Of a DNA stretch of 64,000 nucleotides, positions 183-62,950 are shown in pieces. The stretch comes from Leucoraja erinacea (Eukaryota). The notes under the pieces were generated by a model. That model was not told the DNA's origin. It did no database searches and worked only from the letters and a program-made list of their open reading frames with translations. The translations under genes and the position numbers were made by a program. How positions within the stretch are numbered: the stretch's first letter is position 1; every line of letters starts with the position of its first letter. Location of the stretch: positions 82,522,001 to 82,586,000 of the forward strand of contig NC_073382.1 of the NCBI RefSeq assembly GCF_028641065.1, given 5' to 3'.

Positions 183-3100
183 TAGAATATACATCTCTAT
201 GGTAGAATGGAAAGTAATCAAAATGTGCGTTTAAAAAGTGCCTGCGAGTTAATGGACCAAACAGATCTAAGCTACATTTTAATATAAAATTGGATACATG
301 TAAGCCTAGAAGGAACAAATGTAAAAAACAATAATTTAATTAACTAGAGCCTGGAAAACCAATTGGCGAAAAACCAGTCATGGGTGCTTTGGCTTGAAGT
401 TGATAGGCACTACTTACTGCAAATGGAGGCGTGGGTGTACTGGCATGAAGTTGAAAGGCACTACTTACTGCAAATGGTGGCATGTAGTTGAAAGGCAATA
501 CTTACTGCAAATTGTGGCTTGGGTGCTTTGGCTTGAAGTTAAAAGGCACTACTTACTGCAAATGGTGCCTTGGGAGCTTAGGTTTGAAGTTGAAAGGCAC
601 TACTTACTGCAAATGGTGGCTTGGGTGCTTTGGCTTGAAGTTGAAAGGCGCTACTTACCGCAAATGGTGGCTTGGATGCTTTGGCTTGAAGTTGAAAGGC
701 ACTACTTACTGCAAATGGTGGCTTGGGTGCTTTGCTTGAAGTTGAAAGGCACTACTTACTGCAAATGGTGGCATGAAGTTGAAAGGCACTACTTACTACA
801 AATGGTGGCTTGGGTGCTTTGGCTTGAAGTTGAAAGGCACTACTCACTGCAAATGGCGGCGTGGGTGCATTGGCTTGCAGTTGAAAGGCACTACTTACTG
901 GTGGCAAATGGTGGCATGAAGTTGAAAGGCACTACTTGCTGCAAATGGTGGCTTGGGTGCTTTGGCTTGAAGTTGAAAGGTACTACTTACCGCAAATGGT
1001 GGCGGGAGCTTTGGTTTGAAGTTGAAAGGCACTTCTTACTGCAAATGGTGGCTTGGGTGCTTTGGCTTGAAGTTGAAAGGCACTACTTACTGCAAATGGT
1101 GGCATGTAGTTGAAAGGCACCACTTACTGCAAATGGTGGCTTGGGTGCTTTGGCTTGAAGTTGAAAGGCACTGCTTACTGCAAATGGTGGCTTGGGTGCT
1201 TTGGCTTGAAGTTGAAAGGCACTACTTACCGCAAATGGTGGCGTGGATGCTTTGGCTTGAAGTTGAAAGGCACTACTTACTGCAAATGGTGGCTTGGGTG
1301 CTTTGCTTGAAGTTGCACTACTTACTGCAAATGGTGGCATGAAGTTGAAAGGCACTACTTACTACAAATGGTGGCTTGAGTGCTTTGGCTTGAAGTTGAA
1401 AGGCACTACTTACTGCAAATGGTGGCATGAAGTTGAAAGGCACTACTTGCTGCAAATGGTGGCTTGGGTGCTTTGGCTTGAAGTTGAAAGGTACTACTTA
1501 CTGCAAATGGTGGCTTGGGTGCTTTGGTTTGAAGTTGAAAGGCACTACTTACTGCAAATGGTGGCTTGGGTGCTTTGGCTTGAAGTTGAAAGGCACTACT
1601 TACTGCAAATGGTGGCGGGGGTGCTTTGGCTTGAAGTTGAAAGGCACTACTTACTGCAAATGGTGGCTTGGGTGCTTTGGCTTGAAGTTGAAAGGCACTA
1701 CTTACTGCAAATGGTGGCATGAAGTTGAAAGGCACTACTTACTGCAAATGGTGGCTTGGGTGCTTTGGCTTGAAGTTGAAAGGCACTACTTACTGCAAAT
1801 GGTGGCTTGGGTGCTTTGGCTTGAAGTTGAAAGGCACTACTTACTGCAAATGGTGGCATGAAGTTGAAAGGCACTACTTACTGCAAATGGTGGCTTGGGT
1901 GCTTTGGCATGCACTTGAAGTTGAAAGGCACTACTTACTGCAAATGGTGGCTTGGGTGCTTTGGCTTGAAGTTGAAAGGCACTACTTACTGCAAATGGTG
2001 GCATGAAGGCTTGAAGTTGAAAGGCACTACTTACTGCAAATGGTGGCTTGGGTGCTTTGGTTTGAGTTGAAAGGTACTACTTACTGCAAATGGTGGCTTG
2101 GGTGCTTTGGTTTGAAGTTGAAAGGCACTACTTACTGCAAATGGTAGCTTGGGTGCTTTGGCTTGAAGTTGAAAGGCACTACTTACTGCAAATGGTGGCA
2201 TGAAGTTGAAAGGCACTACTTACTGCAAATGGTGGCTTGGGTGCTTTGGCTTGAAGTTGAAAGGCACTACTTACTGCAAATGGTGGCGTGGGTGCTTTGG
2301 CTTGAAGTTGAAAGGCACTACTTACTGGAAATGGTAGCTTGGGTGCTTTGGCTTGAAGTTGAAAGGCACTACTTACTGCAAATGGTGGCTTGGGTGCTTT
2401 GGCTTGAAGTTGAAAGGCACTACTTACTGCAAATGGTGGCTTGGGTGCTTTGGCTTGAAGTTGAAAGGCACTACTTACTGCAAATGGTGGCTTGGGTGCT
2501 TTGGCTTGAAGTTGAAAGGCACTACTTACTGCAAATGGTGGCATGAAGTTGAAAGGCACTACTTACTGCAAATGGTGAATTGGCTTGAAGTTGAAAGGCA
2601 CTACTTACTGCAAATGGTGGCATGAAGTTGAAAGGCACTACTTACTGCAAATGGTGGCTTGGGTGCTTTGGCTTGAAGTTGAAAGGCACTACTTACTGCA
2701 AATGGTGGCGTGGGTGCATTGGCGTGAAGTTGAAAGTCACTACTTACTGCAAATGGTGTAATGAAGTTGAAAGGCACTACTTACTGCAAATGGTGGCTTG
2801 GGTGCTTTGGCTTGAAGTTGAAAGGCACTACTTACTGCAAATGGTGGCTTGGGTGCATTGGCTTGAAGTTGAAAGGCACTACTTACTGCAAATGGTGGCA
2901 TGAAAGTTGAAAGGCACTACTTACTGCAAATGGTGGCTTGGGTGCTTTGGCTTGAAGTTGAAAGGCACTACTTACTGCAAATGGTGGCGTGGGTGCGTTA
3001 GCTGAGGTTGAAAGGCATTACTTACTGCAAAGGGTGAAAAAGGCACTACTTACTGCAAATGGTGGCTTGGGTGCTTTGGCTTGAAGTTGAAAGGCACTAC

Positions 3101-4683
3101 TACTTACTGCAAATGGTGGCGTGGGTTCATTGCTTGAAGTTGAAAGGCACTATTTGGCATGAAGTTGAAAGGCACTAGGCACGTCAAACGGTGGTTTGGG
3201 TGCTGTGGCTTGAAGTTGAAAGGCACTATTTACTGCAAATGGTGGCTTGGGTGCTTTGGCTTGAAGTTGAAAGGCACTACTTACTGCAAATGGTGGCTTG
3301 GGTGCTTTGGCTTGAAGTTGAAAGGCACTACTTACTGCAAATGGTGGCTTGGGTGCTTTGGCTTGAAGTTGAAAGGCACTACTTACTGCAAATGGTGGCT
3401 TGGGTGCTTTGGCTTGTAGTTGAAAGGCATTACTTATTGAAAATGGTGGCTTGGGTGCTTTGGCTTGAAGTTGAAAGGCACTACTTACTGCAAATGGTGG
3501 CATGAGGTTGAAAGGCACTACTTACTGCAAATGGTGGCTTGGGTGCTTTGGCTTGAAGTTGAAAGGCACTACTTACTGCAAATGGTGGCTTGGGTGCTTT
3601 GGCTTGAAGTTGAAAGGCACTACTTACTGCAAATTGTGGCTTGGGTGCTTTGGCTTGAAGTTGAAAGGCACTACTTACTGCAAATGGTGGCTTGGGTGCT
3701 TTGGCTTGAAGTTGAAACGCACTACTTGCTGCAAATGGTGGTGTGGGTTAATTGGCATGAATTTGAAAGGCACTACTTACTGCAATTGGTGGCTTGGGAG
3801 CATTGGATTGAAGTTGAAAGACTTCTTACTGCAAATGGTGGCTTGGGTGGTTTGGCTTGAAGTTGAAAGGCACTACTTACTGCAAATGGTGGAATGAAGT
3901 TGAAAGGCACTACTTACTGCAAATTGTGGCTTGGGTGCTTTGGCTTGAAGTTGAAAGGCACTACTTACTGCAAATGGTGGCTTGGGAGCTTTGGTTTAAA
4001 GTTGAAAAGCACTTCTTATTGCAAATGGTGGCTTGGTGGCTTGGGTGCTTTGGCTTGAAGTTGAGAGGCACTACTTATTGCAAATGATGGCTTGGGTGCT
4101 TTGCCTTGAAGTTGAAAGGCGCTACTTACTGCAAATGGTGGCGTGTGTGCTTTGGCTTGAAGTTGAAAGGCACTACTTACTGCAAATGGTGGCTTGGGTG
4201 CTTTGCTTGAAGTTGAAAGGCACTACTTACTGCAAATGGTGGTTTGGGTGCTTTGGCTTGAAGTTGAAAGGCACTACTTACTGTAAATGGTGGCTTGGGT
4301 GCTTTGGCTTGAAATTGAAAGGCACTACTTACTGCAAATGGTGGCTTGGGTGCTTTGGCTTGAAGTTGAAAGGCACTACTTACAGCAAATGGTGGGTTGG
4401 GTGCTTTGGCTTGATGTTGAAAGGCACTACTTACAGCAAATGGTGGGTTGGGTGCTTTGGCTTGATGTTGAAAGGCACTACTTACTGCAAATGGTGGCGT
4501 GGGTGTATTGGCATGAATTTGAAAGGTACTAATTACTGCAAATGGTGGCATGAAGTTGAAAGGCACTACTTACTGCAAATGGTGGCTTAGGTGCTTTGGT
4601 TTGAAGTTGAAAGGCACTACTTACTGCAAATGGTGGCTTGGGAGCTTTGGTTTTAAGTTGAAAAGCACTTCTTACTGCAAATG

Positions 4684-5139
4684 TCGTCAGCAGCGGCCTC
4701 GGCAGCCCGTCTGCGTTTTTATTATTTTTTGTCTTTGTTTTTATGTAGTTTTTGTTATTTTTTGTTGTGGTGTGTGTGTGGGGGGGGTGGGGGTGGAGTG
4801 GGTGGGAGGGAGTAACGTTTAATCTCCCCCTGCATGGGAGACCCGACCTTTTCTTTGTCGGGTCTCCGTTGTCGTTGGGGCTGCAACGAGGAGCGGCCTC
4901 CAACAGGAAGACCGGGGGCTCTGGTGCCGACTACTCACCTCACCGTCGCGGAGCTGGCCGAGTCGAGAGCGGGTGGAGCGCTGCTGCGGCCCGACCTCCG
5001 TGGAGAGATAAGTTTTTTTGGCCTTCCATCACAGCAATGTGATGGATGTTTATGGGAAATTATGTTGTGTCTTGGGTCTATTTGTTTGTAATGTATGGCT
5101 GCAGAAACGTCATTTCGTTTGGACCTCAAGGGGTCCAAA
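4684..5139 (+). mobile_element. Non-LTR-type interspersed repeat inserted in the satellite (copy 1, internally deleted)
   Basis: Starts TCGTCAGCAGCGGCCTC; near-identical to 6795-7135; its 3' part matches 29910-30060, which ends in a (TCTTGA) tail. Confidence 0.7.
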
Positions 5140-6794
5140 NNNNNNNNNNNNNNNNNNNNNNNNNNNNNNNNNNNNNNNNNNNNNNNNNNNNNNNNNNNNN
5201 NNNNNNNNNNNNNNNNNNNNNNNNNNNNNNNNNNNNNNNNNNNNNNNNNNNNNNNNNNNNNNNNNNNNNNNNNNGAAGTTGAAAGGCGCCTTACTACTTA
5301 CTGCAAATGGTGGCATGAAGTTGAAAGGCACTACTTACTGCAAATGGTGGCTTGGGTGCTTTGCCTTGAAGTTGAAAGGCACTACTTACTGCAAATGGTG
5401 GCGTGGGTGCTTTGGCTTGAAGTTGAAAGGCACTACTTACTGCAAATGGTGGCTTGGGAGCTTTGGTTTTAAGTTGATAGGCACTTCTTACTGCAAATGG
5501 TGGTTTGGGTGCTTTGGCTTGAAGTTGAAAGGCGCTACTTACTGCAAATGGTGGCATTAAGTTGAAAGGCACTACTTACTGCAAATGGTGGCTTGGGTGC
5601 TTTGCCTTGAATTTGAAAGGCAGTACTTACTGCAAATGGTGGCGTGGGTGCTTTGGCTTGAAGTTGAAAGGCACTACTTACTGCAAATGATGGCATGAAG
5701 TTGAAAGGTACTACTTACTGCAAATAGTGGCTTGGGTGCTTTGGCTGGAGGTTGAAAGGCACTACTTACTGCAAATAGTGGATTGTGTGCTTTGCTTGAA
5801 GTTGAAAGGCGCTACTTACTGCAAATGGTGGCTTGGGTGCTTTGACTTTAAGTTGAAAGGCACTACTTACTGCAAATGGTGGCACGAAGTTGACAGGCAC
5901 TACTTACAGCAAATGGTGGCTTGGGTGCTTTGGCTTGAAGTTGAAAGGCACTACTTACTGCAAATGGTGGCTTGGGTGTTTTGCTTGAAGTTGAAAGGCA
6001 CTACTTACTGCAAATGGTGGCGTGGGTGTATTGGCTTGAAGTTGAAAGGCACTACTTACTGCAATTGATGGCTTGGGAGCATTGGCTTGAAGTTGAAAGG
6101 CACTACTCACTGCAAATGGTGGCTTGAATGCTTTGGCTTGAAGTTGAAAGGCACTACTTACTGCAAATGGTGACGGGTGCATTGGCTTGAAGTTGAAAGG
6201 CATTACTTACTGCAAGTGGTGGCTTGGGTGCTTTGGCGAAGTTGAAAGGCACTACTTACTGCAAATGGTGGCATGAAGTTGAAAGGCACTACTCACTGCA
6301 AATGGTGGCTTGGATGCTTTGGCTTGAAGTTGAAAGGCACTACTTACTGCAAATGGTGTCGTGAGTGTATTGGCTTGAAGTTGAAAGGTTCTACTTACTG
6401 CAAATTGTGGCATGAAGTTGAAAGACACTACTTACCGCAAATGATGGCTTGGGAGCTTTGGTTTGAAGTTGAAAGGCACTACTTACTGCAAATGGTGGCG
6501 TGGGTGTATTGGCTTTAAGTTGAAAGGCATTACTTACTGCAAATGGTGGCTTGGGAGCATTGGATTGAAGTTGAAAGACTTCTTACTGCAAATGGTGGCT
6601 TGGGTGGTTTGGCTTGATGTTGAAAGGCACTACACTGCAAATGGTGGCTTGGGTGCTTTGGCTTGAAGTTGAAAGACTTCTTACTGCAAATGATGGCTTG
6701 GGTGGTTTGGCTTGAAGTTGAAAGGCACTACTTATTGCAAATGGTGGCTTGGGAGCTTTGGTTTTAAGTTGAAAGGCACTTCTTACTGCAAATG

Positions 6795-7488
6795 TCGTCA
6801 GCAGCGGCCTCTGCAGCCCATCTGCGTTTTTATTATTTTTTGTCTATGTTTTTATGTAGTTTTTGTTTTTTTTTGTTGTGGTGTGTGTGTGTGGGGGGGG
6901 GGGGGGGGGGGGGGGGTGGGGGGTGGGAGGGAGGGAGTAACTTTTAAATCTCCCCCTGCACGGGAGACCCGACCTTTTCTTTGTCGGGTCTCCGTTGTCG
7001 TTGGGGCTGCAACGAGGAGCGGCCTCCAACAGGAAGACCGGGGGCTCTGGTGCCGACTACTCACCTCACCGTCGCGGAGCTGGCCGAGTCCAGAGCGGGT
7101 GGAGCGGTGGTGGAGCGCTGCTGCGGCCCGACCTCCAGAGATTCGGAGGCTGCAACTGCGGGTCTGGCGGACGGCGGCACTGGGAGCCCGCGGGTCCCTG
7201 GAGGGAGACCGCTTTTCAGGGCTCCCGCAATGGTGACTTCTCCCGCCCGAGTTGCGGGGTCAAAGAGCTCCTGGAGCGGGGCCTTACAGCACCACCCCGC
7301 GCGGCTTGGAATGGCCGCGGGACTCTGCGAGCGCACGCCGGGGGCTCTAACATCAAGAACCCGGTGTGCGACCTTGCATCACCCGGCGTGGCTTTAATGG
7401 CCGCGGGACAATCGCCATCGCCAGCCGGGGGCTTTGACTTTGACTCTGGGGGGGGGGGGGGGGGGGGGGGGGGATGCAGTGGAGAGAT
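6795..7488 (+). mobile_element. Same interspersed repeat (copy 2, lacking the 3' tail)
   Basis: Same left junction as copy 1; 7340-7488 matches 29775-29920. Confidence 0.7.
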
Positions 7489-8830
7489 GCTTTGACTTTA
7501 AGTTGAAAGGCACTACTTACTGCAAATGGTGGCACGACGTTGACAGGCACTACTTACTGCAAATGGTGGCATGAAGTTGAAAGGCACTACTCACTGCAAA
7601 TGGTGGCTTGGGTGCTTTACCTTGAAGTTGAAAGGCTCTACTTACTGCAAATGCTTGAAGTTGAAAGGCACTACTTACTGCAAATGGTGGCGTGAGTGTA
7701 TTGGCTTGAAGTTGAAAGGCTCTACTTACTGCAAATGGTGGCATGGAGTTGAAAGGCACTACTTACTGCAAATGGTGGTGTGGGTGCTTTGGCTTGACGT
7801 TGAAAGGCGCTACTTACTGCAAATGGTGGCATGAAGTTGAAAGGCATGACTTACTGCAAATGGTGGCTTGGGTGCTTTGCCTTGAAGTTGAAAGGCACTA
7901 CTTACTGCAAATGGTGGCTTGGGAGCTTTGGCTTTAAGTTGAAAGGCACTACTTACTGCAAATGGTGGCACGAAGTTGACAGGCACTACTTACTGCAAAT
8001 CGTGGCTTGGGTGCTTTGGCTTCAAGTTGAAAGGCACTACTTGCTGCAAATGGTGGCGTGGGTGCTTTGGCTTGACGTTGCAAGGCGCTACTTACTGCAA
8101 ATGGTGGCATGAAGTTGAAAGGCACTACTTACTGCAAATAGTGGTTTGGGTGCTTTGGCTTGAAGTTGAAAGGCACTACTCACTGCAAATGGTGGCTTGG
8201 ATGCTTTGGCTTGAAGTTGAAAGGCACTACTTACTGCAAATGGTGGCGTGAGTGGCTTGAAGTTGAAAGGCTCTACTTACTGCAAATGGTTGAAAAAGGC
8301 TCTACTTACTGCAAATGGTGGCCTGAGGTTGAAAGGCACTACTTACTGCAAATGATGGCTTGGGTGCTTTGGCTTGAAGTTGAAAGGCACTACTCACTGC
8401 AAATGGTGGCTTGGGAGCTTTGGCTTGAAGTTGAAAGGCACTACTTACTGCAAATGGTGACTTGGGTGCTTTGGCTTGAAGTTGAAAGGCACTACTTACT
8501 GCAAATGGTGACTTGGGTGCTTTGGCTTGAAGTTGAAAGGCATTACTTACTGCAATTGGTGGCATGAAGTTGAAAGGCACTACTTACTGCAAATAGTGAC
8601 TTGGGTGCTTTGGCTTGAAGTTGAAAGGCACTACTCACTGCAAATGGTGGATTGGGAGCTTTGGCTTGAAGTTGAAAGGCACTACTTACTGCAAATGGTG
8701 ACTTGGGTTATTTGGCTTGAAGTTGAAAGGCACTACTTACTGCAAATGGTGACTTGGGTGCTTTGGCTTGAAGTTGAAAGGCACTACATACTGCAAATGG
8801 CGGCTTGGGTGCTTTGGCTTGAGGTTAAAA

Positions 8831-9799
8831 CGCAGTACTGCAAATGCACTTACTTCCTGTTTGCACTGTCTATTGATTTTAGATAAAACGCTAGCCACTT
8901 AAGGCTGTGATTTTTGGCCATCTTACTCACTCCCCCCTCCGCTAAGCAGGTGCAGAGAATTCTTCCCTTCAATGAAAAATAAAAGTGTTATTAGTGTTAA
9001 AAAATGTTGAGAATCTCTCTCCTGTCAATCACACCATGAAAGCCACACCTTTTCCGGTGAGAGGGGGGGGGAGTTATAAAACCCGGAATTGTGGGTGTGG
9101 CTCAGTCTCTGCATGATGGTGGAGGGAGAGGTCATGACTCTGTCTGAGCTGTGAATCAACTGAGCACACTGAATGTCTGCTGAACTGTGAGTTTGGTGTT
9201 TTGTGTGGTTTTATGGTGGTTTCACCCTGTATGAAATGGTATGAAGATGCATTTGAATTTGATGGCCTTGCACCCTGCTTGAAGTGGAATGAAACTGCAC
9301 TTGAATTTTGCGGCCTTGCATCCTGCTTGAAGTGGTATGAAACTGCACTGAATTTGGTGGCCTTGCACCCTGCTGAAAGTGGTATGAAACTGCTCTTGAA
9401 TTTGGTGGCCTTGGATCCAGCTTGAAGTGGTATGAAACTGCACTTGAATTTGGTGGCCTTGCACCCTGCTCATAGTGGTAAGAAACTGCACTTGAATTTG
9501 GTGGCCTTGCACCCTGCTCGAAATGGTAGGAACATGGATTTGAATTTGGTGGCCTTGCACCCTGCTTGAAATCCAATTTCAAGGAATAGTCATGAGAACT
9601 GCCAGTCCACCAGCCGTGAGTGAGCTGCCAGCAGATCAGGCTTGAGGGACTGAGCTGCCACCCCAAGAACCCATACCAGCACTCCACAAAGCCCCCCCAC
9701 TGGCCACCAATATTGGAATTGGTGGAGAGGTGGAATATTGCGTCGGGGGACCAGCCCTCCCGTGTGAACATGGGACCCAACGGGTCCCACTTAGTCTAG
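8831..9799 (+). mobile_element. 3' portion of non-autonomous Helitron A (the satellite upstream is probably internal to it)
   Basis: Ends with hairpin TGGGACCC-AAC-GGGTCCCA (9771-9789), then CTAG (9796-9799) followed by T, the canonical Helitron 3' terminus. No Rep/helicase ORF seen. Confidence 0.75.
9225..9570. repeat. 48-bp minisatellite (~7 copies)
   Basis: Unit GAAATGGTATGAAACTGCACTTGAATTTGGTGGCCTTGCACCCTGCTT; further copies at 10665-10835. Confidence 0.9.
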
Positions 9800-10838
9800 T
9801 CTATATTACTAAAAGTAAGATCTTGACCCCTTTTGACTCACTGAGATGTGATTTCCGAGAGAACACCGCCATTTACGGCCATCATTTTTGGCCACCTTGC
9901 TCAGAGCCTCATTCCGCCAGACTGGACTGGAGGATTTTTCCCATCGATGAAAAATCAGATATTAATGTTTTAAAACATTTCGCCATTCTCTCTGCTGCCC
10001 CTGCTGGAGGGAGGGGGGAGGGACTATAAAACCCTGAAGTGGTGTGCTTCAGTCTCTGCAAGATGGAGGAAGCAAGAGGGTCACGTCTCTCTGAGCTCTG
10101 ACTAACACTGAACACATGTCTACTCAACTGTGAGTGCCCTGAATGGGGTTTGAAAATATGGTTGCTTTCAAATGCTGCACAGCAAAAAAAATGGTTGTTG
10201 TTGGTGGTGGTAACTGCTTTGAAAGGCTGCACTGCAAAAAAAAAATGGCTGTTGTTGATGATCGTAACTGCTTTGAAAGGCTGCACTGCAAAAAAAAAAA
10301 ATCCTGTTTGCACTGAATATTGATTTTAGATAAAATGCTACCACTTACGGCTGTGATTTTTGGCCATCTTACTCAGTTCCTCGCCACTCATCAGGCGCAG
10401 CGGATGAAAAATAAAAGCGTTATTAATGTTTAAAAAAATGTTGAGAATCTCTCTCCAGTCAATCACGCCATGAAGGTCACACCCCTTCCAGTTGGAGGGG
10501 GAGGGATTATAAACCCCGTAAGTGTGGGTGTGGCTCAGTCTTTGCAAGATGGGGGAGAGGTCACGACTCTGTCTGAGCTGTGAATCAACTGAACACACTG
10601 AATGTCTACTGAACTGTGAGTGTGGTGTTTATGTGGTGGTTTGTGTGGTTTTATGGTGGTTTCACCCTGCTTGAAATGGTATGTGAAACTGCACTTCAAT
10701 TTGGTTGTCTTGCACCCTGCTTGAAGCGGTATGAAACTGTACTTGAATTTGGTGGCCTTGCACCCTGCTTGAAATGACATGAAACAGCACCAGCATTTGG
10801 TGGCCTTGCACCCTGCTTGAATTGACATGAAACTGCCT
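9800..10838 (+). mobile_element. Non-autonomous Helitron B, 5' portion, head-to-tail with Helitron A
   Basis: Begins TCTATATTACTAAAA immediately after CTAG; 10302-10680 is homologous to 8855-9235; carries the same 48-bp repeat; truncated at ~10838. Confidence 0.7.
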
Positions 10839-12152: not shown

Positions 12153-12353
12153 TCACTCTGCTCCACTCGTCACCTCCAGGCTCGAGGCTGGGGCCGTCTC
12201 TGGCACTGGGGCCGCCTGGGCCACCTCTGCTGCTCTCCTCTCGTATTCCGCCAGCCGTTTCTGCACGATCGCCGGCATCAGCTGCACGTATGCGCCCATC
12301 AGCCGGTGATTGGTACGGATCAGCTTCCCCGCACACCCATTGATGCAGCTCTC
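12153..12353 (-). CDS. TIMM10B: TIMM10B (Tim9b/FXC1) coding exon 3
   Basis: Acceptor tctag|GAG; encodes [66 protein letters not shown], with the second CX3C; matches recalled human [33 protein letters not shown]. Confidence 0.95.
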
Positions 12354-17779: not shown

Positions 17780-20329
17780 CCACACTCACCCACCGCCCCC
17801 CACACACACCCACACACCACCCCTCCCCCACACTCACTCACCGCCCCCCCGCCCACCCACTCACCACCCCCCGTCCCCCACCCCCACTCACCACCGCCCC
17901 CCTCCCCCACACATACTCACCGCCCCTCCCCCACACCCACTCACTCGCCCCCCCCCCACACACTCACTCACCGCCCCCTCCCCCACACATACTCACCCGC
18001 CCCCTCCCCCACACACACACACCGCCCCCTTCCCCCACTCACTCACCCCCCCCCCACCCCACACCACTCACCGCCCCCTCCCCCACACCCACTCACCGCC
18101 CCCCCCCCCACACTCACTCACCGCCCCCTCCCCCACACACACTCACCGCGCCCCTCCCCACACCCACTCACCGCCCCCCCCCCACACCCCACTCACCGCC
18201 CCCTCCCCCACACCCACTCACCGCCCCCTCCCCCACACTCACTCACCCCACCCCCCCCCCCCACCCACACTCACCGCCCCTCTCCCCCCACACACACCCA
18301 CCCCCCCCCCCCACACCACACACCACCCCTCCCCCACACTCACTCACCGCCCCCCTCCCCCACACACACTCACCGCCCCCTCCCCCACACACACTCACCG
18401 CCCCCTCCCCCACACACACTCACCACCCCCTCCCCCACACACACACACTCACCGCTCCCTCCCCCCACACACACTCACCGCCCCCTCCCCCACACTCACT
18501 CACCGCCCCCTCCCCCCCCACACACACCCACACCTCATCCCCCCCCCCCCCCCACACACACACTCACCGCCCCCTCCCCCACCCCCACCACCCCCCACCC
18601 ACACCCCCCCCCCCCACACACACCACCGCCCCCTCCCCCACACACACCCCCCCCCCCCCCCCACACTCACCCCCCCCCCCCCCCCACCCACACACTCACC
18701 CCCCCCCTCCCCCACACTCACCGCCCCCTCCCCCCCCTCCCCCACACTCATCACCGCCCCCCCCCCCACCACACACACTCACCGCCCCCTCCCCCACACA
18801 CACTCACCGCCCCCTCCCCCCACACACAACCCCCCCCCCCCCCCCCACCTCACCCGCCCCCACCCCCACCACACACACACTCACCCCCGCCCCCTCCCCC
18901 ACACTCACCGCCCCCTCCCCCACACACCGCCCACTCCCCCCCCACCCCACACTCACACCCCCACCGCCCCCTCCCCCACACACAACACCCCCCCTCACCC
19001 CCACTCACCCACCCCCACCCCACACTCACCCCCCCCTCCCCCACACACCCCCCGCCCCCTCCCCCACACACACACTCACCGCCCCCTCCCCCACCACACA
19101 CTCACCGCCCCCCCCCCCCACACCCACACAACCCCCCCCCCACACACACTCACCCCCCCCCCCCCACACACACTCACCGCCCCCTCCCCCACACACACTC
19201 ACCGCCCCCCCCCCCCACACACACTCACCGCCCCCCCACCCCACCCACCCCCCCCTCCCCCACCCACTCACCGCCCCACCCCACACCCCCCCCACCCACC
19301 CCCGCCCCCTCCCCCACACACACTCACCGCCCCCTCCCCCACACACACTCACCGCCCCCCCCCCCACACACACTCACCGCCCCCTCCCCCACACACACTC
19401 ACCACCGCCCCCCCCCCCACACACACACTCACCGCCCCCCCCCCCACACACACTCACCGCCCCCCCCCCACACACACTCACCGCCCCCTCCCCCACACTC
19501 ACTCACCGCACCCCTCCCCCACACCCCACTCACCGCCCCCTCCCCCACACCCACCCACCGCCCCCTCCCCCACACCCCTCACACCCCCCCCCCCCCCCCC
19601 ACACCCACCACCGCCCCCCCCCCCCCACACCCACTCACCGCCCCCCTCCCCCACACCCTCACCCCTCACCGCCCCCTCCCCCACACTCACTCACCCGCCC
19701 CCCCCCCCCCACACACACTCACCGCCCCCCCCCCCCCCACTCACACTCACCACCGCCCCCTCCCCCACACACACTCACCGCCCCCTCCCCCACACCACTC
19801 ACCCGCCCCCTCCCCCACACACACTCACCGCCCCCTCCCCCACACTCACTCACTCACTCACCGCCCCCTCCCCCACACACTCACCGCCCCCCCCTCCCCC
19901 ACACACACACTCACCGCCCCCTCCCCCCCCCACACCACTCACCGCCCCCTCCCCCACACACTCACTCACCGCCCCCTCCCCCACCACTCACTCACCGCCC
20001 CCCCCCCCACACTCACTCACCCCCCCCCCCACACACACTCACCACCCCCTCCCCCACACCCACTCACCGCCCCCCTCCCCCACACCACTCTCACCGCCCC
20101 CTCCCCCCCACCCACTCACCGCCCCCTCCCCCACACCCACTCACCGCCCCCTCCCCCACACACACTCACCGCCCCCCCCCCCTCCCCACACTCACTCGCC
20201 CCCTCCCCCTCCCCCACACCCACCCACCGCCCCCTCCCCCACACCCACTCACCGCCCCCCCCCCCTCCCCCACACTCACTCACCGCCCCCCCCCCCCCAC
20301 ACCCACAACCCCTCCCCACACTCACTCAC
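17780..20329 (-). repeat. ~25-bp G-rich minisatellite starting at the TIMM10B intron-1 donor
   Basis: Plus-strand unit CTCACCGCCCCCTCCCCCACACACA; minus-strand unit GTGAGTGTGTGTGGGGGAGGGGGCG; ~2.5 kb with noisy homopolymers. Confidence 0.9.
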
Positions 20330-20365
20330 GTTGCGCAGTTGTTGTTGTCCGGGTTCCGCCGCCAT
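20330..20365 (-). CDS. TIMM10B: TIMM10B coding exon 1
   Basis: ATG at 20365; MAAEPGQQQLRN then donor AAC|gtgagt; the QQQLRN-LRDFLL junction matches recalled human TIMM10B. Confidence 0.93.
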
Positions 20366-20440
20366 GTCGCGGTGACCTTTGCCCCGGAGTTTCCGGGCGA
20401 CCCCGCTGACAGGTGAATGGATGTCGTCACTTCCTGGCGG
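20358..20440. promoter_or_regulatory. Bidirectional CpG-rich promoter shared by TIMM10B and ARFIP2
   Basis: ETS/CRE composite CGTCACTTCCTG (20425-20436); YY1-like ACATGGCGGC overlapping the TIMM10B ATG; the head-to-head arrangement is also present in human. Confidence 0.75.
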
Positions 20441-20471
20441 AGATCCCGCTGCAGCTCGCGGGCCGGACTGG
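20437..20471 (+). other. ARFIP2: Putative ARFIP2 non-coding exon 1 (start approximate)
   Basis: GC-rich segment ending at a strong donor TGG|GTGAGT (GT at 20472). Confidence 0.65.
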
Positions 20472-20918
20472 GTGAGTGAGGGAGGGAGCGCCGCGGTGGG
20501 CAGGGGGTGAGTGAGGGAGGGAGCGCCGCGGTGGGCAGGGGGTGAGTGAGGGAGGGAGCGCCGCGGTGGGCAGGGGGTGGGTGAGTGAGGGAGCGCCGCG
20601 GTGGGCAGGGGGTGAGTGAGTGAGGGAGCGCCGCGGTGGGCAGGGGGGGGAGTGAGTGAGGGAGCGCCGCGGTGGGCAGGGGGTGAGTGAGGGAGGGAGC
20701 GCCGCGGTGGGCAGGGGGGTGAGTGAGGGAGGGAGCGCCGCGGTGGGCAGGGGGTGAGTGAGGGAGCGCCGCGGTGGGCAGGGGGTGAGATGAGGGAGGG
20801 AGCGCCGCGGTGGGCAGGGGGGTGAGTGAGGGAGGGAGCGCCGCGGTGGGCAGGGGGTGAGTGATCCTTGTCCCGCTGCGCCGCGGTGGGCAGGGGGTGA
20901 GTGAGGGAGCGCCGCGGG
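20472..20918 (+). repeat. 35-bp G-rich minisatellite starting at the ARFIP2 intron-1 donor
   Basis: ~13 copies of GTGAGTGAGGGAGGGAGCGCCGCGGTGGGCAGGGG. Confidence 0.95.
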
Positions 20919-21039: not shown

Positions 21040-21690
21040 TAGACCCGGAACGTCGCCCATTCCTTCTCTCCAGAGATGATCCTTGTCCCGCTGAATTACT
21101 CCAGCACTCTGTGTCTATCTTCAGTGTAAACCAGCACCTGCAGTTTCCTTCCCACACAGTGTTTCTGGAGACAGGTGACGTTTTGGGTCAGGACTGCTTC
21201 AGACTGATTCTGGGTGTGGGGAAAGAAAGGTGGAAAAGAGGAGGGGCAGGACAAAGTGTGGCAGGTAACAGGTGAACACAGGTGAGGGGCCATTTTTGAT
21301 AAACCTATCTGCCACTCTTTGTCCCGCCCACCCAACTTTTTAACCCTGCACCTCCCTCCCAAATCAAACTGATTTGGGTCCTGAAATGTCACCTGTCCAT
21401 GCTGCCTGACCCACTGAGTTACTCCAGCACTCTGTGAAATGTCACCTATCCATGTTCCCCACAGATGCTGCCTGACCCACTGAGTTACTCCAGCACTCTG
21501 TGAAACGTCACCTATCCATGTTCTCCACAGATGCTGCCTGACCCGCTGAGTTACTCCAGCACTCTGTGAAACGTCACCTATCCATGTTCTCCACAGATGC
21601 TGCCTGACCCGCTGAGCTACTCCAGCACTCTGTGAAACGTCACCTATCCATGTTCTCCACAGATGTTGCCTGACCCGCTGAGTTACTCCG
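21040..21690. mobile_element. Penelope-like element terminal-repeat fragments with a 66-bp tandem array (21385-21688)
   Basis: Unit CTCTGTGAAACGTCACCTATCCATGTTCTCCACAGATGCTGCCTGACCCGCTGAGTTACTCCAGCA; the same tail follows GIY-YIG-coding sequence at 50660-51500. Confidence 0.75.
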
Positions 21691-61742: not shown

Positions 61743-62569
61743 TATATCTTAATTTCATTGAACCAAATACTTGGTTGAATATGTGGCATTATTTTCATCT
61801 TGTTTATATAGTCAAAGGGTGAGGTTGATTGATTAATTTATTTGTGCAGAACAGTGATGGTAGTCTGACTCCTCTTGCCTTTCTATGGGGTTTTTTCTCT
61901 ATATATATGCATAACAGCATGAATTATAATCTGATTTCCATACATGAATATACTAAGGTCATTCATGTGCTGCACCTGTTGATCAGAGTGTGGCTCTATT
62001 GTGGAATGTAATTAGGAATGTAATTTAGCCTAACCTTATTCATACCTAATCCAATTTAAAGCATAAATGTTGCATTCAAATGTAAGTTAAAAGACTCGCT
62101 ACAGAATGCACCAGATTGCACAATTTCAAGCTGGAAAATGCAAAAGCTCCCCACCGTAGGAGGGGTGGACAACCCCCCTCGCCCCTCCTCCCCCCCCCCT
62201 CCCCTCAGTCGCTATGCTCCCTCACAATTTTTCACTCTCAACTTTCACCCAATGTTGCCAGCCCTGGGATGGGAGGTTAGTTTGTGGGATGGTCTGGGCT
62301 GCGTCCACAACTCTCTACAATTTCCTGTGGTCTTGGATGGAGCTGTTCCTACTGTTCCCTTGTGTGTTGGTGGGGAGGGGGGGTGAGAGCAGAGCTACGA
62401 GAGGAGATGGGGGTGAGGGATCCATCTGCGATATGTTATGGTGTTGTTCCTGTGACGCAGGTTTCTGGTCCGGGGAGAGTTGGTGACTCTGGTGACGGGA
62501 TGAGGATCGCTCGGCCAACTGGTTGTTGGATTCTGACTAACCGCAGCGAAGCAGTCAACGGAGCAGGTC

Positions 62570-62950
62570 TCAGTCACCATGACAACAGAGAAGGCCTCAG
62601 TCACCATGAAAACGAAGCAGGGCCCGGTCACCATGACAACAGAGCAGGCCCCGTTCACCATGGAAATGGAGCAGACCCCGGTCACCATGACAACAGAGCA
62701 GGCCCCGGTCACCATGAAAACGGAACAGGCCCCGGTCACCATGACAACAGAGCAGGCCTCGGTCACCATGACAACAGAGCAGGCCCCGGTCACCATGGAA
62801 ACGGAGCAGGCCCCGGTCACCATGACAACAGAGCAGGCCCCGGTCACCAGGGAAATGGAGCAGGCCCCAGTCACCATGACAACAGAGCAAGCCCCGGTCA
62901 CCATGAAAACGGATGGAACAGGCCCCGGTTACCGTGACAACGGATCAGAT
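62570..62950 (+). repeat. 27-bp minisatellite (13-14 units)
   Basis: Unit GTCACCATGACAACAGAGCAGGCCCCG; reads MTTEQAPVT in one frame. Confidence 0.95.

What the first reader, a model, noticed from the sequence alone, without database searches (positions are those of the whole stretch)
17780..20918. Mirror-image arrays of 5' splice sites and G-tracts on both sides of a bidirectional promoter
Seen: each gene's first intron begins exactly with a minisatellite whose unit recreates the donor. TIMM10B has dozens of CG|GTGAGT units over 2.5 kb; ARFIP2 has ~13 units of GG|GTGAGT. The two units are otherwise different, both are G-rich on the transcribed strand, and GC skew flips at the promoter. Established: U1 binding suppresses premature polyadenylation and supports transcription; intronic G-runs bind hnRNP H/F; G-skew favours R-loops and G-quadruplexes. 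Inference: either a U1-loading/G4 module amplified independently in both directions, or a mutational process that seeds repeats at first donors. For TIMM10B, use of downstream donors would alter the protein.
Basis: partly seen in the sequence, partly recalled or inferred. Interest (0 to 1): 0.75.

Follow-up and report, generated by a model that had tools for sequence, protein, structure and literature searches.

The report
Skate introns stutter beside their exons
The two repeat arrays of splice-signal copies beside this shared promoter are in the sequence, but they are likely not a dedicated switch: about a third of the predicted exon ends in this gene-dense stretch carry such local repeats, which resembles the intron 'stuttering' so far described mainly in birds.

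Summary
Observation confirmed. RNA reads place both first donors where the arrays begin (TIMM10B AAC|GTGAGT at 20329, ARFIP2 TGG|GTGAGT at 20472). A ~99 x 25 bp and a ~12 x 35 bp G-rich unit follow, each carrying GTGAGT. A U1/G4 module specific to first introns is not supported. In 0.5 Mb around the window, 25 of 69 predicted internal donors and 14 of 75 acceptors abut a tandem array, against about 3% of random positions and 2 of 67 / 0 of 50 Ras-family exon ends elsewhere. GTGAG after donors shows no strand bias (79 sense, 65 antisense). Median intron repeat cover is 33% versus 0.8%. This resembles avian 'sequence stuttering' and the human F7/ABCA7 donor VNTRs. TIMM10B used its first donor in 12 listed junction reads; all 98 later GTGAG sites would give premature stops. 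About 2-3 ARFIP2 reads hint at later donors in its non-coding exon. Length polymorphism is untested, and the left array has no independent DNA support. The scan's earlier notes showed no similar finding.

The parts
20330..20373 (-). TIMM10B exon 1 (ATG at 20365, MAAEPGQQQLRN); transcript 5' ends at about 20373
   Evidence: (12 junction reads; 4 reads end at 20373 in a loose tail that I recognise from memory as a template-switch adapter)
17781..20329 (-). Left array: ~99 x 25 bp G-rich unit starting at intron 1 +1; 98 downstream GTGAG pseudo-donors, 26 G4 motifs; the unit dimer occurs only here in the genome
16531..16626 (-). TIMM10B exon 2 (zf-Tim10_DDP)
12153..12353 (-). TIMM10B exon 3, coding part
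20374..20422 (.). Short CpG-rich interval between the two divergent transcript starts (bidirectional promoter core; GGAA words nearby at 20354, 20391, 20431 on the minus strand)
   Evidence: promoter role inferred from the divergent RNA starts
20423..20471 (+). ARFIP2 non-coding exon 1 (reads start at about 20423-20443)
   Evidence: depth table and 3 junction reads
20472..20918 (+). Right array: ~12 x 35 bp unit starting at intron 1 +1; 6 G4 motifs; GGTGGGCAGG occurs 12 times
34446..34553 (+). ARFIP2 exon 2 (first coding exon, ATG at 34455)
35116..35859 (+). C-rich 31-32 bp array ending exactly at the ARFIP2 exon 3 acceptor
41045..41859 (+). C-rich ~35 bp array ending 2 nt before an ARFIP2 acceptor
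42547..43477 (+). Exon stutter: 3 copies of the acceptor plus the first ~34 nt of the next ARFIP2 exon (best 52 bits)
53408..53750 (+). Internal control: C-rich array 50 nt after a third first-exon-like donor (53358), without donor copies
   Evidence: this donor was not RNA-checked

Best explanation
Both arrays begin at RNA-confirmed first donors and are likely by-products of a regional repeat-expansion process ('sequence stuttering') that expands short GC-rich intron-edge sequence up to the exon boundary, rather than a selected U1/G4 device. Shown: tandem arrays cluster at predicted exon ends of every kind in this gene-dense, GC-rich part of chromosome C6, on either strand and with either skew, and the left unit is unique to this locus. 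Inferred: (1) G4-prone, low-complexity intron starts are duplicated by slippage, repair or non-crossover gene conversion; (2) purifying selection on the exon stops the array at +1; (3) GTGAGT is copied because it is the first intron word and a common GT/GTGA repeat word. The mirror symmetry follows from two divergent genes whose first introns start G-rich, a general vertebrate bias. The spliceosome would cope by taking the most upstream donor, as shown for F7. Leak to later donors would be degraded for TIMM10B and harmless for ARFIP2, where it only lengthens the 5' UTR.
For: 25 of 69 internal donors and 14 of 75 acceptors have an array starting or ending within ~30 nt, versus 3.1% and 3.3% of random intronic positions, 15 of 255 decoy donors (p=1e-9) and 38 of 1122 decoy acceptors (p=1e-6); 21 of 64 without the five donors I added by eye. 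Ras-family exon ends elsewhere: 2 of 67 and 0 of 50. Median TRF cover 33% in 50 local introns versus 0.8% in 75 Ras loci. GTGAG in the 400 nt after donors: 79 sense, 65 antisense. Skew after donors: 26 G-rich, 20 C-rich of 69. Donor-recreating arrays at internal exons: a cadherin exon at C6:82.72 Mb and a ligand-gated-channel exon at C12:0.2 Mb. CAGGTGAGT arrays on the antisense strand right after donors in two other genes. Exon copies above 42.1 bits at 2 of 144 intron sides, shuffled maximum 24.3. Left unit dimer: 6 of 6 matches inside this array. First donor in all 12 listed TIMM10B junction reads although 75 of 98 later sites score at least as high.
Against: Exon ends were predicted by my own codon/PWM model and curated by eye, unblinded; 44 of 83 candidate exons had a Pfam hit. 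Arrays starting exactly at +1 with sense-strand donor copies are a minority (5 of 69 with 2 or more copies, plus the cadherin array that my window missed), so two back to back, one with 98 copies, remain at the extreme end. Genome-wide CAGGTGAGT x3 matches outnumber the backwards control 334 to 45, though these are overlapping rows from few arrays. No first-intron sample from stuttering domains beyond 3 genes. Length polymorphism and the mutational mechanism are untested.
Confidence: 0.7

Rival explanations
1. The arrays are a selected U1-loading / G-quadruplex module that raises output or suppresses premature polyadenylation in both directions.
For: Both arrays start at +1 on the sense strand, with 98 and ~12 donor copies and 26 and 6 G4 motifs; 95 of 98 left sites pair with the U1 5' end at least as well as the real donor (U1 11-mer recalled). 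First introns start G-rich on the non-template strand in human through frog (PMC2275096, abstract).
Against: No strand bias of GTGAG after regional donors; unrelated units on the two sides; a C-rich array after the third first-exon-like donor; most GTGAGT arrays elsewhere are not at donors (1 possible of 17 loci on C1; 2 clear of 12). In TIMM10B every extra donor is a loss-of-function risk.
Confidence: 0.1
2. A mutational process acts specifically at first donors of CpG-island promoters, for example through R-loops or pausing.
For: Three first coding exons in the Ras set have long G-rich low-complexity intron starts outside this domain (L133, L138, L140). One C1 array (L069) follows a CpG-rich, first-exon-like donor.
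Against: Internal donors and acceptors are hit at high rates here. Only 2 of 31 Ras-domain-start exons had a TRF array, one of them a 66-bp repeat also common in this window.
Confidence: 0.1
3. The left array is inflated or garbled by assembly, so its size and internal variety are partly artefact.
For: Ragged G-runs of up to 17; no independent record spans the TIMM10B exon 1/array junction; a 17-nt piece in right unit 12 also occurs at 21077.
Against: The start of the right array is present in contigs of a second organism label; both flanks and exons are intact; similar arrays occur across the region and on other chromosomes.
Confidence: 0.07
4. G-rich 5' and C-rich 3' intron ends pair and bridge the splice sites, as in (GGG)m-(CCC)n introns.
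For: TIMM10B intron 1 ends in a C-rich tract; the mechanism is proposed in PMC4691745 (passages).
Against: Duplex energy -189 versus -178+-8 for composition-matched controls in TIMM10B, and -67 versus -74 in ARFIP2; no consistent regional skew at either intron end.
Confidence: 0.03

Closest known systems
Sequence stuttering of avian dot-chromosome genes (Hron et al. 2026, PMC12954441; abstract, passages, second half of Discussion and a supplement term search read)
   Same: Locally born imperfect tandem arrays confined to introns of GC-rich genes; exons intact; median intron repeat cover 33% (their dots 7-93%, other chromosomes near 0); occasional copies of an exon edge with its splice site (2 of 144 intron sides here; 3.4% of dot introns there).
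   Different: A cartilaginous fish (the label 'skate' comes from earlier scan notes), 5.4 Mb from the end of an 88-Mb chromosome, not a dot chromosome. Length variation between individuals is untested here. The two focal arrays copy the donor without the exon, so their exon screen would miss them. The authors did not find the pattern outside birds, except in gerbil GC-rich genes (data not shown).
F7 intron 7 37-bp VNTR (PMC1557585, abstract)
   Same: The real donor is followed by many identical pseudo-donors; the most upstream is used even when later ones pair better with U1.
   Different: The F7 unit spans the exon-intron boundary of an internal intron; here the units start at +1 of first introns, and ARFIP2 shows a hint of leak.
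ABCA7 intron 18 VNTR (PMC13747324, passages)
   Same: ~25-bp unit parsed from GTGAG, immediately beside the donor; use of donors inside it gives premature stops, as predicted for TIMM10B.
   Different: Internal human intron with measured length polymorphism and disease association; a single locus rather than a regional pattern.
G-rich 5' ends of first introns (Eddy and Maizels 2008, PMC2275096, abstract)
   Same: G-richness on the non-template strand at the start of intron 1, which explains the skew flip between divergent genes.
   Different: Those elements are not described in the abstract as kilobase tandem arrays of donor copies.

Membership tests
Sequence stuttering (Hron et al. 2026) | Introns heavily covered by simple tandem repeats | tested here: met
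   Median 33% in 50 predicted local introns (41 at 7% or more) versus 0.8% in 75 Ras loci
Sequence stuttering (Hron et al. 2026) | Local origin; arrays confined between intact exons | tested here: met
   Left unit dimer only at this locus (right unit not searched); exons translate intact
Sequence stuttering (Hron et al. 2026) | Occasional copies of exon edges in the adjacent intron | tested here: met
   2 of 144 sides above 42.1 bits, shuffled maximum 24.3: one tandem (ARFIP2), one single 54-nt copy 1.1 kb away; 2 weaker cases
Sequence stuttering (Hron et al. 2026) | Extensive intron length variation within the species | not testable with these tools
Donor-bearing VNTR (F7 / ABCA7 type) | Tandem array starts at the real donor and each unit repeats the donor | tested here: met
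Donor-bearing VNTR (F7 / ABCA7 type) | Most upstream donor dominates | tested here: met
   TIMM10B 12 reads and 1 contig at the first donor, none listed at the 4 later sites inside the laid stretch; ARFIP2 consensus upstream of exon 2 is the exon 1 end. Small numbers; decay may hide TIMM10B leak.
Donor-bearing VNTR (F7 / ABCA7 type) | Variable copy number between alleles | not testable with these tools
   As above
Selected first-intron U1/G4 module | Sense-strand and first-intron specificity of donor-bearing arrays | tested here: not met
   79 sense vs 65 antisense GTGAG after internal donors; arrays at 25 of 69 internal donors
Selected first-intron U1/G4 module | Deletion lowers expression or raises premature polyadenylation | not testable with these tools
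   Needs a minigene
(GGG)m-(CCC)n bridged introns | Pairing of intron ends beyond composition | tested here: not met
   about 1.3 SD for TIMM10B, weaker than control for ARFIP2

The most novel reading that the evidence does not exclude
Sequence stuttering, reported for bird dot chromosomes and not found by its authors in other vertebrates bar gerbils, also runs in GC-rich gene-dense chromosome-end domains of a cartilaginous fish. It nucleates at exon edges, is length-polymorphic, and already supplies working alternative donors (a 35-nt-step ladder of ARFIP2 5' UTRs).
Probability: 0.45. Interest if true: 0.62.

Novelty: new member of a known kind. Interest (0 to 1): 0.42.

Why it matters
As a regulatory module the finding has little support. 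As an example of stuttering outside birds it would extend a newly named form of genome instability to the other main branch of jawed vertebrates and tie it to GC-rich chromosome ends rather than dot chromosomes. It also adds a measurable feature, nucleation at exon edges (about 12-fold over random at donors). The TIMM10B/ARFIP2 pair is a natural test of upstream-donor choice: one array where leak would be destroyed and one where it would be free. I found no report of this in cartilaginous fish in searches or in passages of PMC10620051 and 10.1101/2025.06.08.657570. The library is partial, and bioRxiv supplements were closed.

Tried and rejected
A YY1/Kozak-like 13-mer as a first-exon sampler: 1032 matches, and the 30 loci read were mostly one or two dispersed repeat families, so it was dropped and no genome-wide first-intron rate was obtained. 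Backwards-pattern controls (3264 vs 2470; 334 vs 45) count overlapping rows from a few long arrays and were not used as enrichment tests. Intron bridging was rejected. One search listed no RNA holder on record; raw-read runs were laid instead. Runs X16, X6 and X23 gave nothing at ARFIP2 exon 2, and X22 gave mostly poly-C noise. Papers on two recalled human VNTR-splicing loci were not found. None of six queried gene names appears in the Hron supplement (one hit was TRIM39). Exon prediction in 21 further loci gave only about ten credible exons, too few for a replicate rate. Exon ends that looked exon-internal, terminal or masked were dropped before the counts.

Full report
Setting. The window is G000:C6:82522001-82586000 of a 2.19-Gb genome; C6 is 87.98 Mb long. 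Earlier scan notes call the animal a skate (not tested here). TIMM10B (minus strand) and ARFIP2 (plus strand) are supported by translation and by Pfam zf-Tim10_DDP and Arfaptin hits. Neighbours carry dynein heavy chain, F-box/WD40, formin FH2, RING/B-box/NHL and cadherin domains; the names DNHD1, TRIM3 and DCHS1 rest on those domains plus recalled human synteny.

The observation. The left array (17781-20329) has period 25 and ~99 copies; the right (20470-20909) has period 35 and 12.4 copies. They hold 93 and 13 GTGAGT, and skew flips from about -0.9 to +0.6. Raw poly(A) RNA reads fix both donors: 12 reads and one contig join 20330 to TIMM10B exon 2, and 3 reads join 20471 to ARFIP2 exon 2. Transcript starts lie at about 20373 and 20423-20443, so the shared promoter core is only 50-70 bases. 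A left-unit dimer matches 6 places in the genome, all in this array. Contigs of a run under another organism label cover ARFIP2 exon 1 and the first right units with small indels; nothing independent spans the left junction.

Are the extra donors used? For TIMM10B no loose end was listed at the four later sites inside the laid stretch (threshold 3 reads), although 75 of 98 later sites score at least as high as the real AAC|GTGAGT on a simple weight matrix. All 98 would give a premature stop, 95 inside the array and 3 in exon 2, so decay could hide leak. For ARFIP2 the depth table implies one read ending at 20475 and two at 20506, the bases before the +5 and +36 donors (arithmetic); their loose letters were not printed. 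At the exon 2 acceptor, 7 loose ends have the exon 1 consensus with agreement 0.76, between the 0.80 and 0.70 expected for 5:2 and 4:3 mixes with donor 2. Both calls read the same run, and the two reads could be one molecule, so this is a hint only. Extension to donors up to +314 adds no ATG.

Is it special to first donors? No. ARFIP2 itself has arrays ending at three acceptors and a tandem copy of an exon start. I fetched 480 kb of flanking C6, predicted exons (44 of 83 with a Pfam hit) and curated their ends by eye, dropping ends that looked internal, terminal or masked. 25 of 69 internal donors and 14 of 75 acceptors have a TRF array within about 30 nt, against 3.1% and 3.3% of random intronic positions, 15 of 255 decoy donors and 38 of 1122 decoy acceptors. 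Without five donors added after I had seen repeat flanks the count is 21 of 64. Ras-family exon ends from 75 loci across the genome (part of the 150 matches) gave 2 of 67 and 0 of 50. Intron repeat cover has median 33% locally and 0.8% in the Ras loci. After donors, GTGAG is 79 sense to 65 antisense and skew is G-rich in 26 and C-rich in 20 of 69. The third first-exon-like donor in the window is followed by a C-rich array.

Genome-wide look. GGTGAGT arrays are common; of 17 loci on C1 only one looked as if it followed a donor. The first 100 of 334 rows for a tripled CAGGTGAGT fall in 12 arrays, 10 within 7 Mb of a chromosome end. Two sit at coding donors on the sense strand and include some exon tail (a cadherin exon; a ligand-gated-channel exon on C12); two sit right after donors on the antisense strand; for eight I saw no coding donor. 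Elasmobranch chromosome ends are GC-richer and gene-denser (PMC10620051, passages). The right unit shares GGTGGGCAGG with the human hypervariable minisatellite core listed in PMC9069542 (passages).

Mechanism. Shown: regional, strand-neutral clustering of locally born arrays at exon ends, intact exons, and dominant use of the first donor. Inferred: expansion of G4-prone low-complexity intron edges by slippage, repair or gene conversion (the routes on which Hron et al. speculate), bounded by selection on the exon. The mirror image arises because both first introns start G-rich, a known bias (PMC2275096, abstract), and GTGAGT is their first word. Upstream-donor choice has experimental precedent in F7 (PMC1557585, abstract). 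Against this reading: two exact +1, sense-strand arrays back to back are at the extreme end of the regional pattern (5 of 69 plus one missed), and no function was tested.

Comparison. At locus level this is an F7/ABCA7-type donor repeat. At regional level it works like avian sequence stuttering (PMC12954441): intron repetitiveness and occasional exon copies are met (2 of 144 sides above their 42.1-bit threshold; one is a single displaced copy), while length variation could not be tested, so membership stays open. A human catalogue of splicing-linked tandem repeats (PMC10078293, passages) shows that repeat effects on splicing are widespread. PMC6792250 was seen only as a search listing.

Verdict. 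A real feature, a new member of a known kind. The proposed U1/G4 module is unlikely (0.1). The interest lies in a probable non-avian case of stuttering and a hint of array-borne donor use in ARFIP2. Interest 0.42.

Noticed in passing
window 20862-20878 and 21077-21093: A 17-nt piece inside right-array unit 12 is identical to sequence 215 nt downstream; template switch or polishing chimera.
   Followed up: partly
window 390-8839: Large 51/37-bp satellite downstream of TIMM10B, followed by 48-bp arrays at 9223-9570 and 10663-10836.
   Followed up: no
L153 minus strand (G000:C6:82720242-82720570): Cadherin (DCHS1-like) internal exon followed by about eleven 31-33 bp copies of exon tail plus CAG|GTGAGT; a cleaner F7-type case than the focal arrays.
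   Followed up: partly
L224 (G000:C12:200220-200830, minus): Ligand-gated ion-channel exon with CAG|GTGAGT arrays both before it and at its donor.
   Followed up: partly
L186 minus strand, about 1.1 kb after the exon at 725-929: A 54-nt, 94% identical copy of a dynein-gene exon tail followed by a GTAAG donor-like site, at the far end of a G-rich array.
   Followed up: partly
L223 (G000:C11:214517-214595): CAGGTGAGT array preceded by a possible 18-nt micro-exon between an acceptor-like and a donor-like site; unverified.
   Followed up: no
L164-L166 (G000:C6:82.826-82.856 Mb): About 30 kb that is 64-100% tandem repeat, 240 kb from the window.
   Followed up: no
L188-L217: A 13-mer start-codon-like motif begins a dispersed repeat family with about 1000 exact matches genome-wide.
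   Followed up: no
window 62556-62948: 27-bp in-frame-like repeat (14 copies) in a probable coding exon of the formin-domain gene.
   Followed up: no
L054 (G000:C6:81486402-81486662, minus): A Rho/Rac-like reading frame runs straight into a tandem array with no good donor nearby; array invading an exon, or an assembly error.
   Followed up: no
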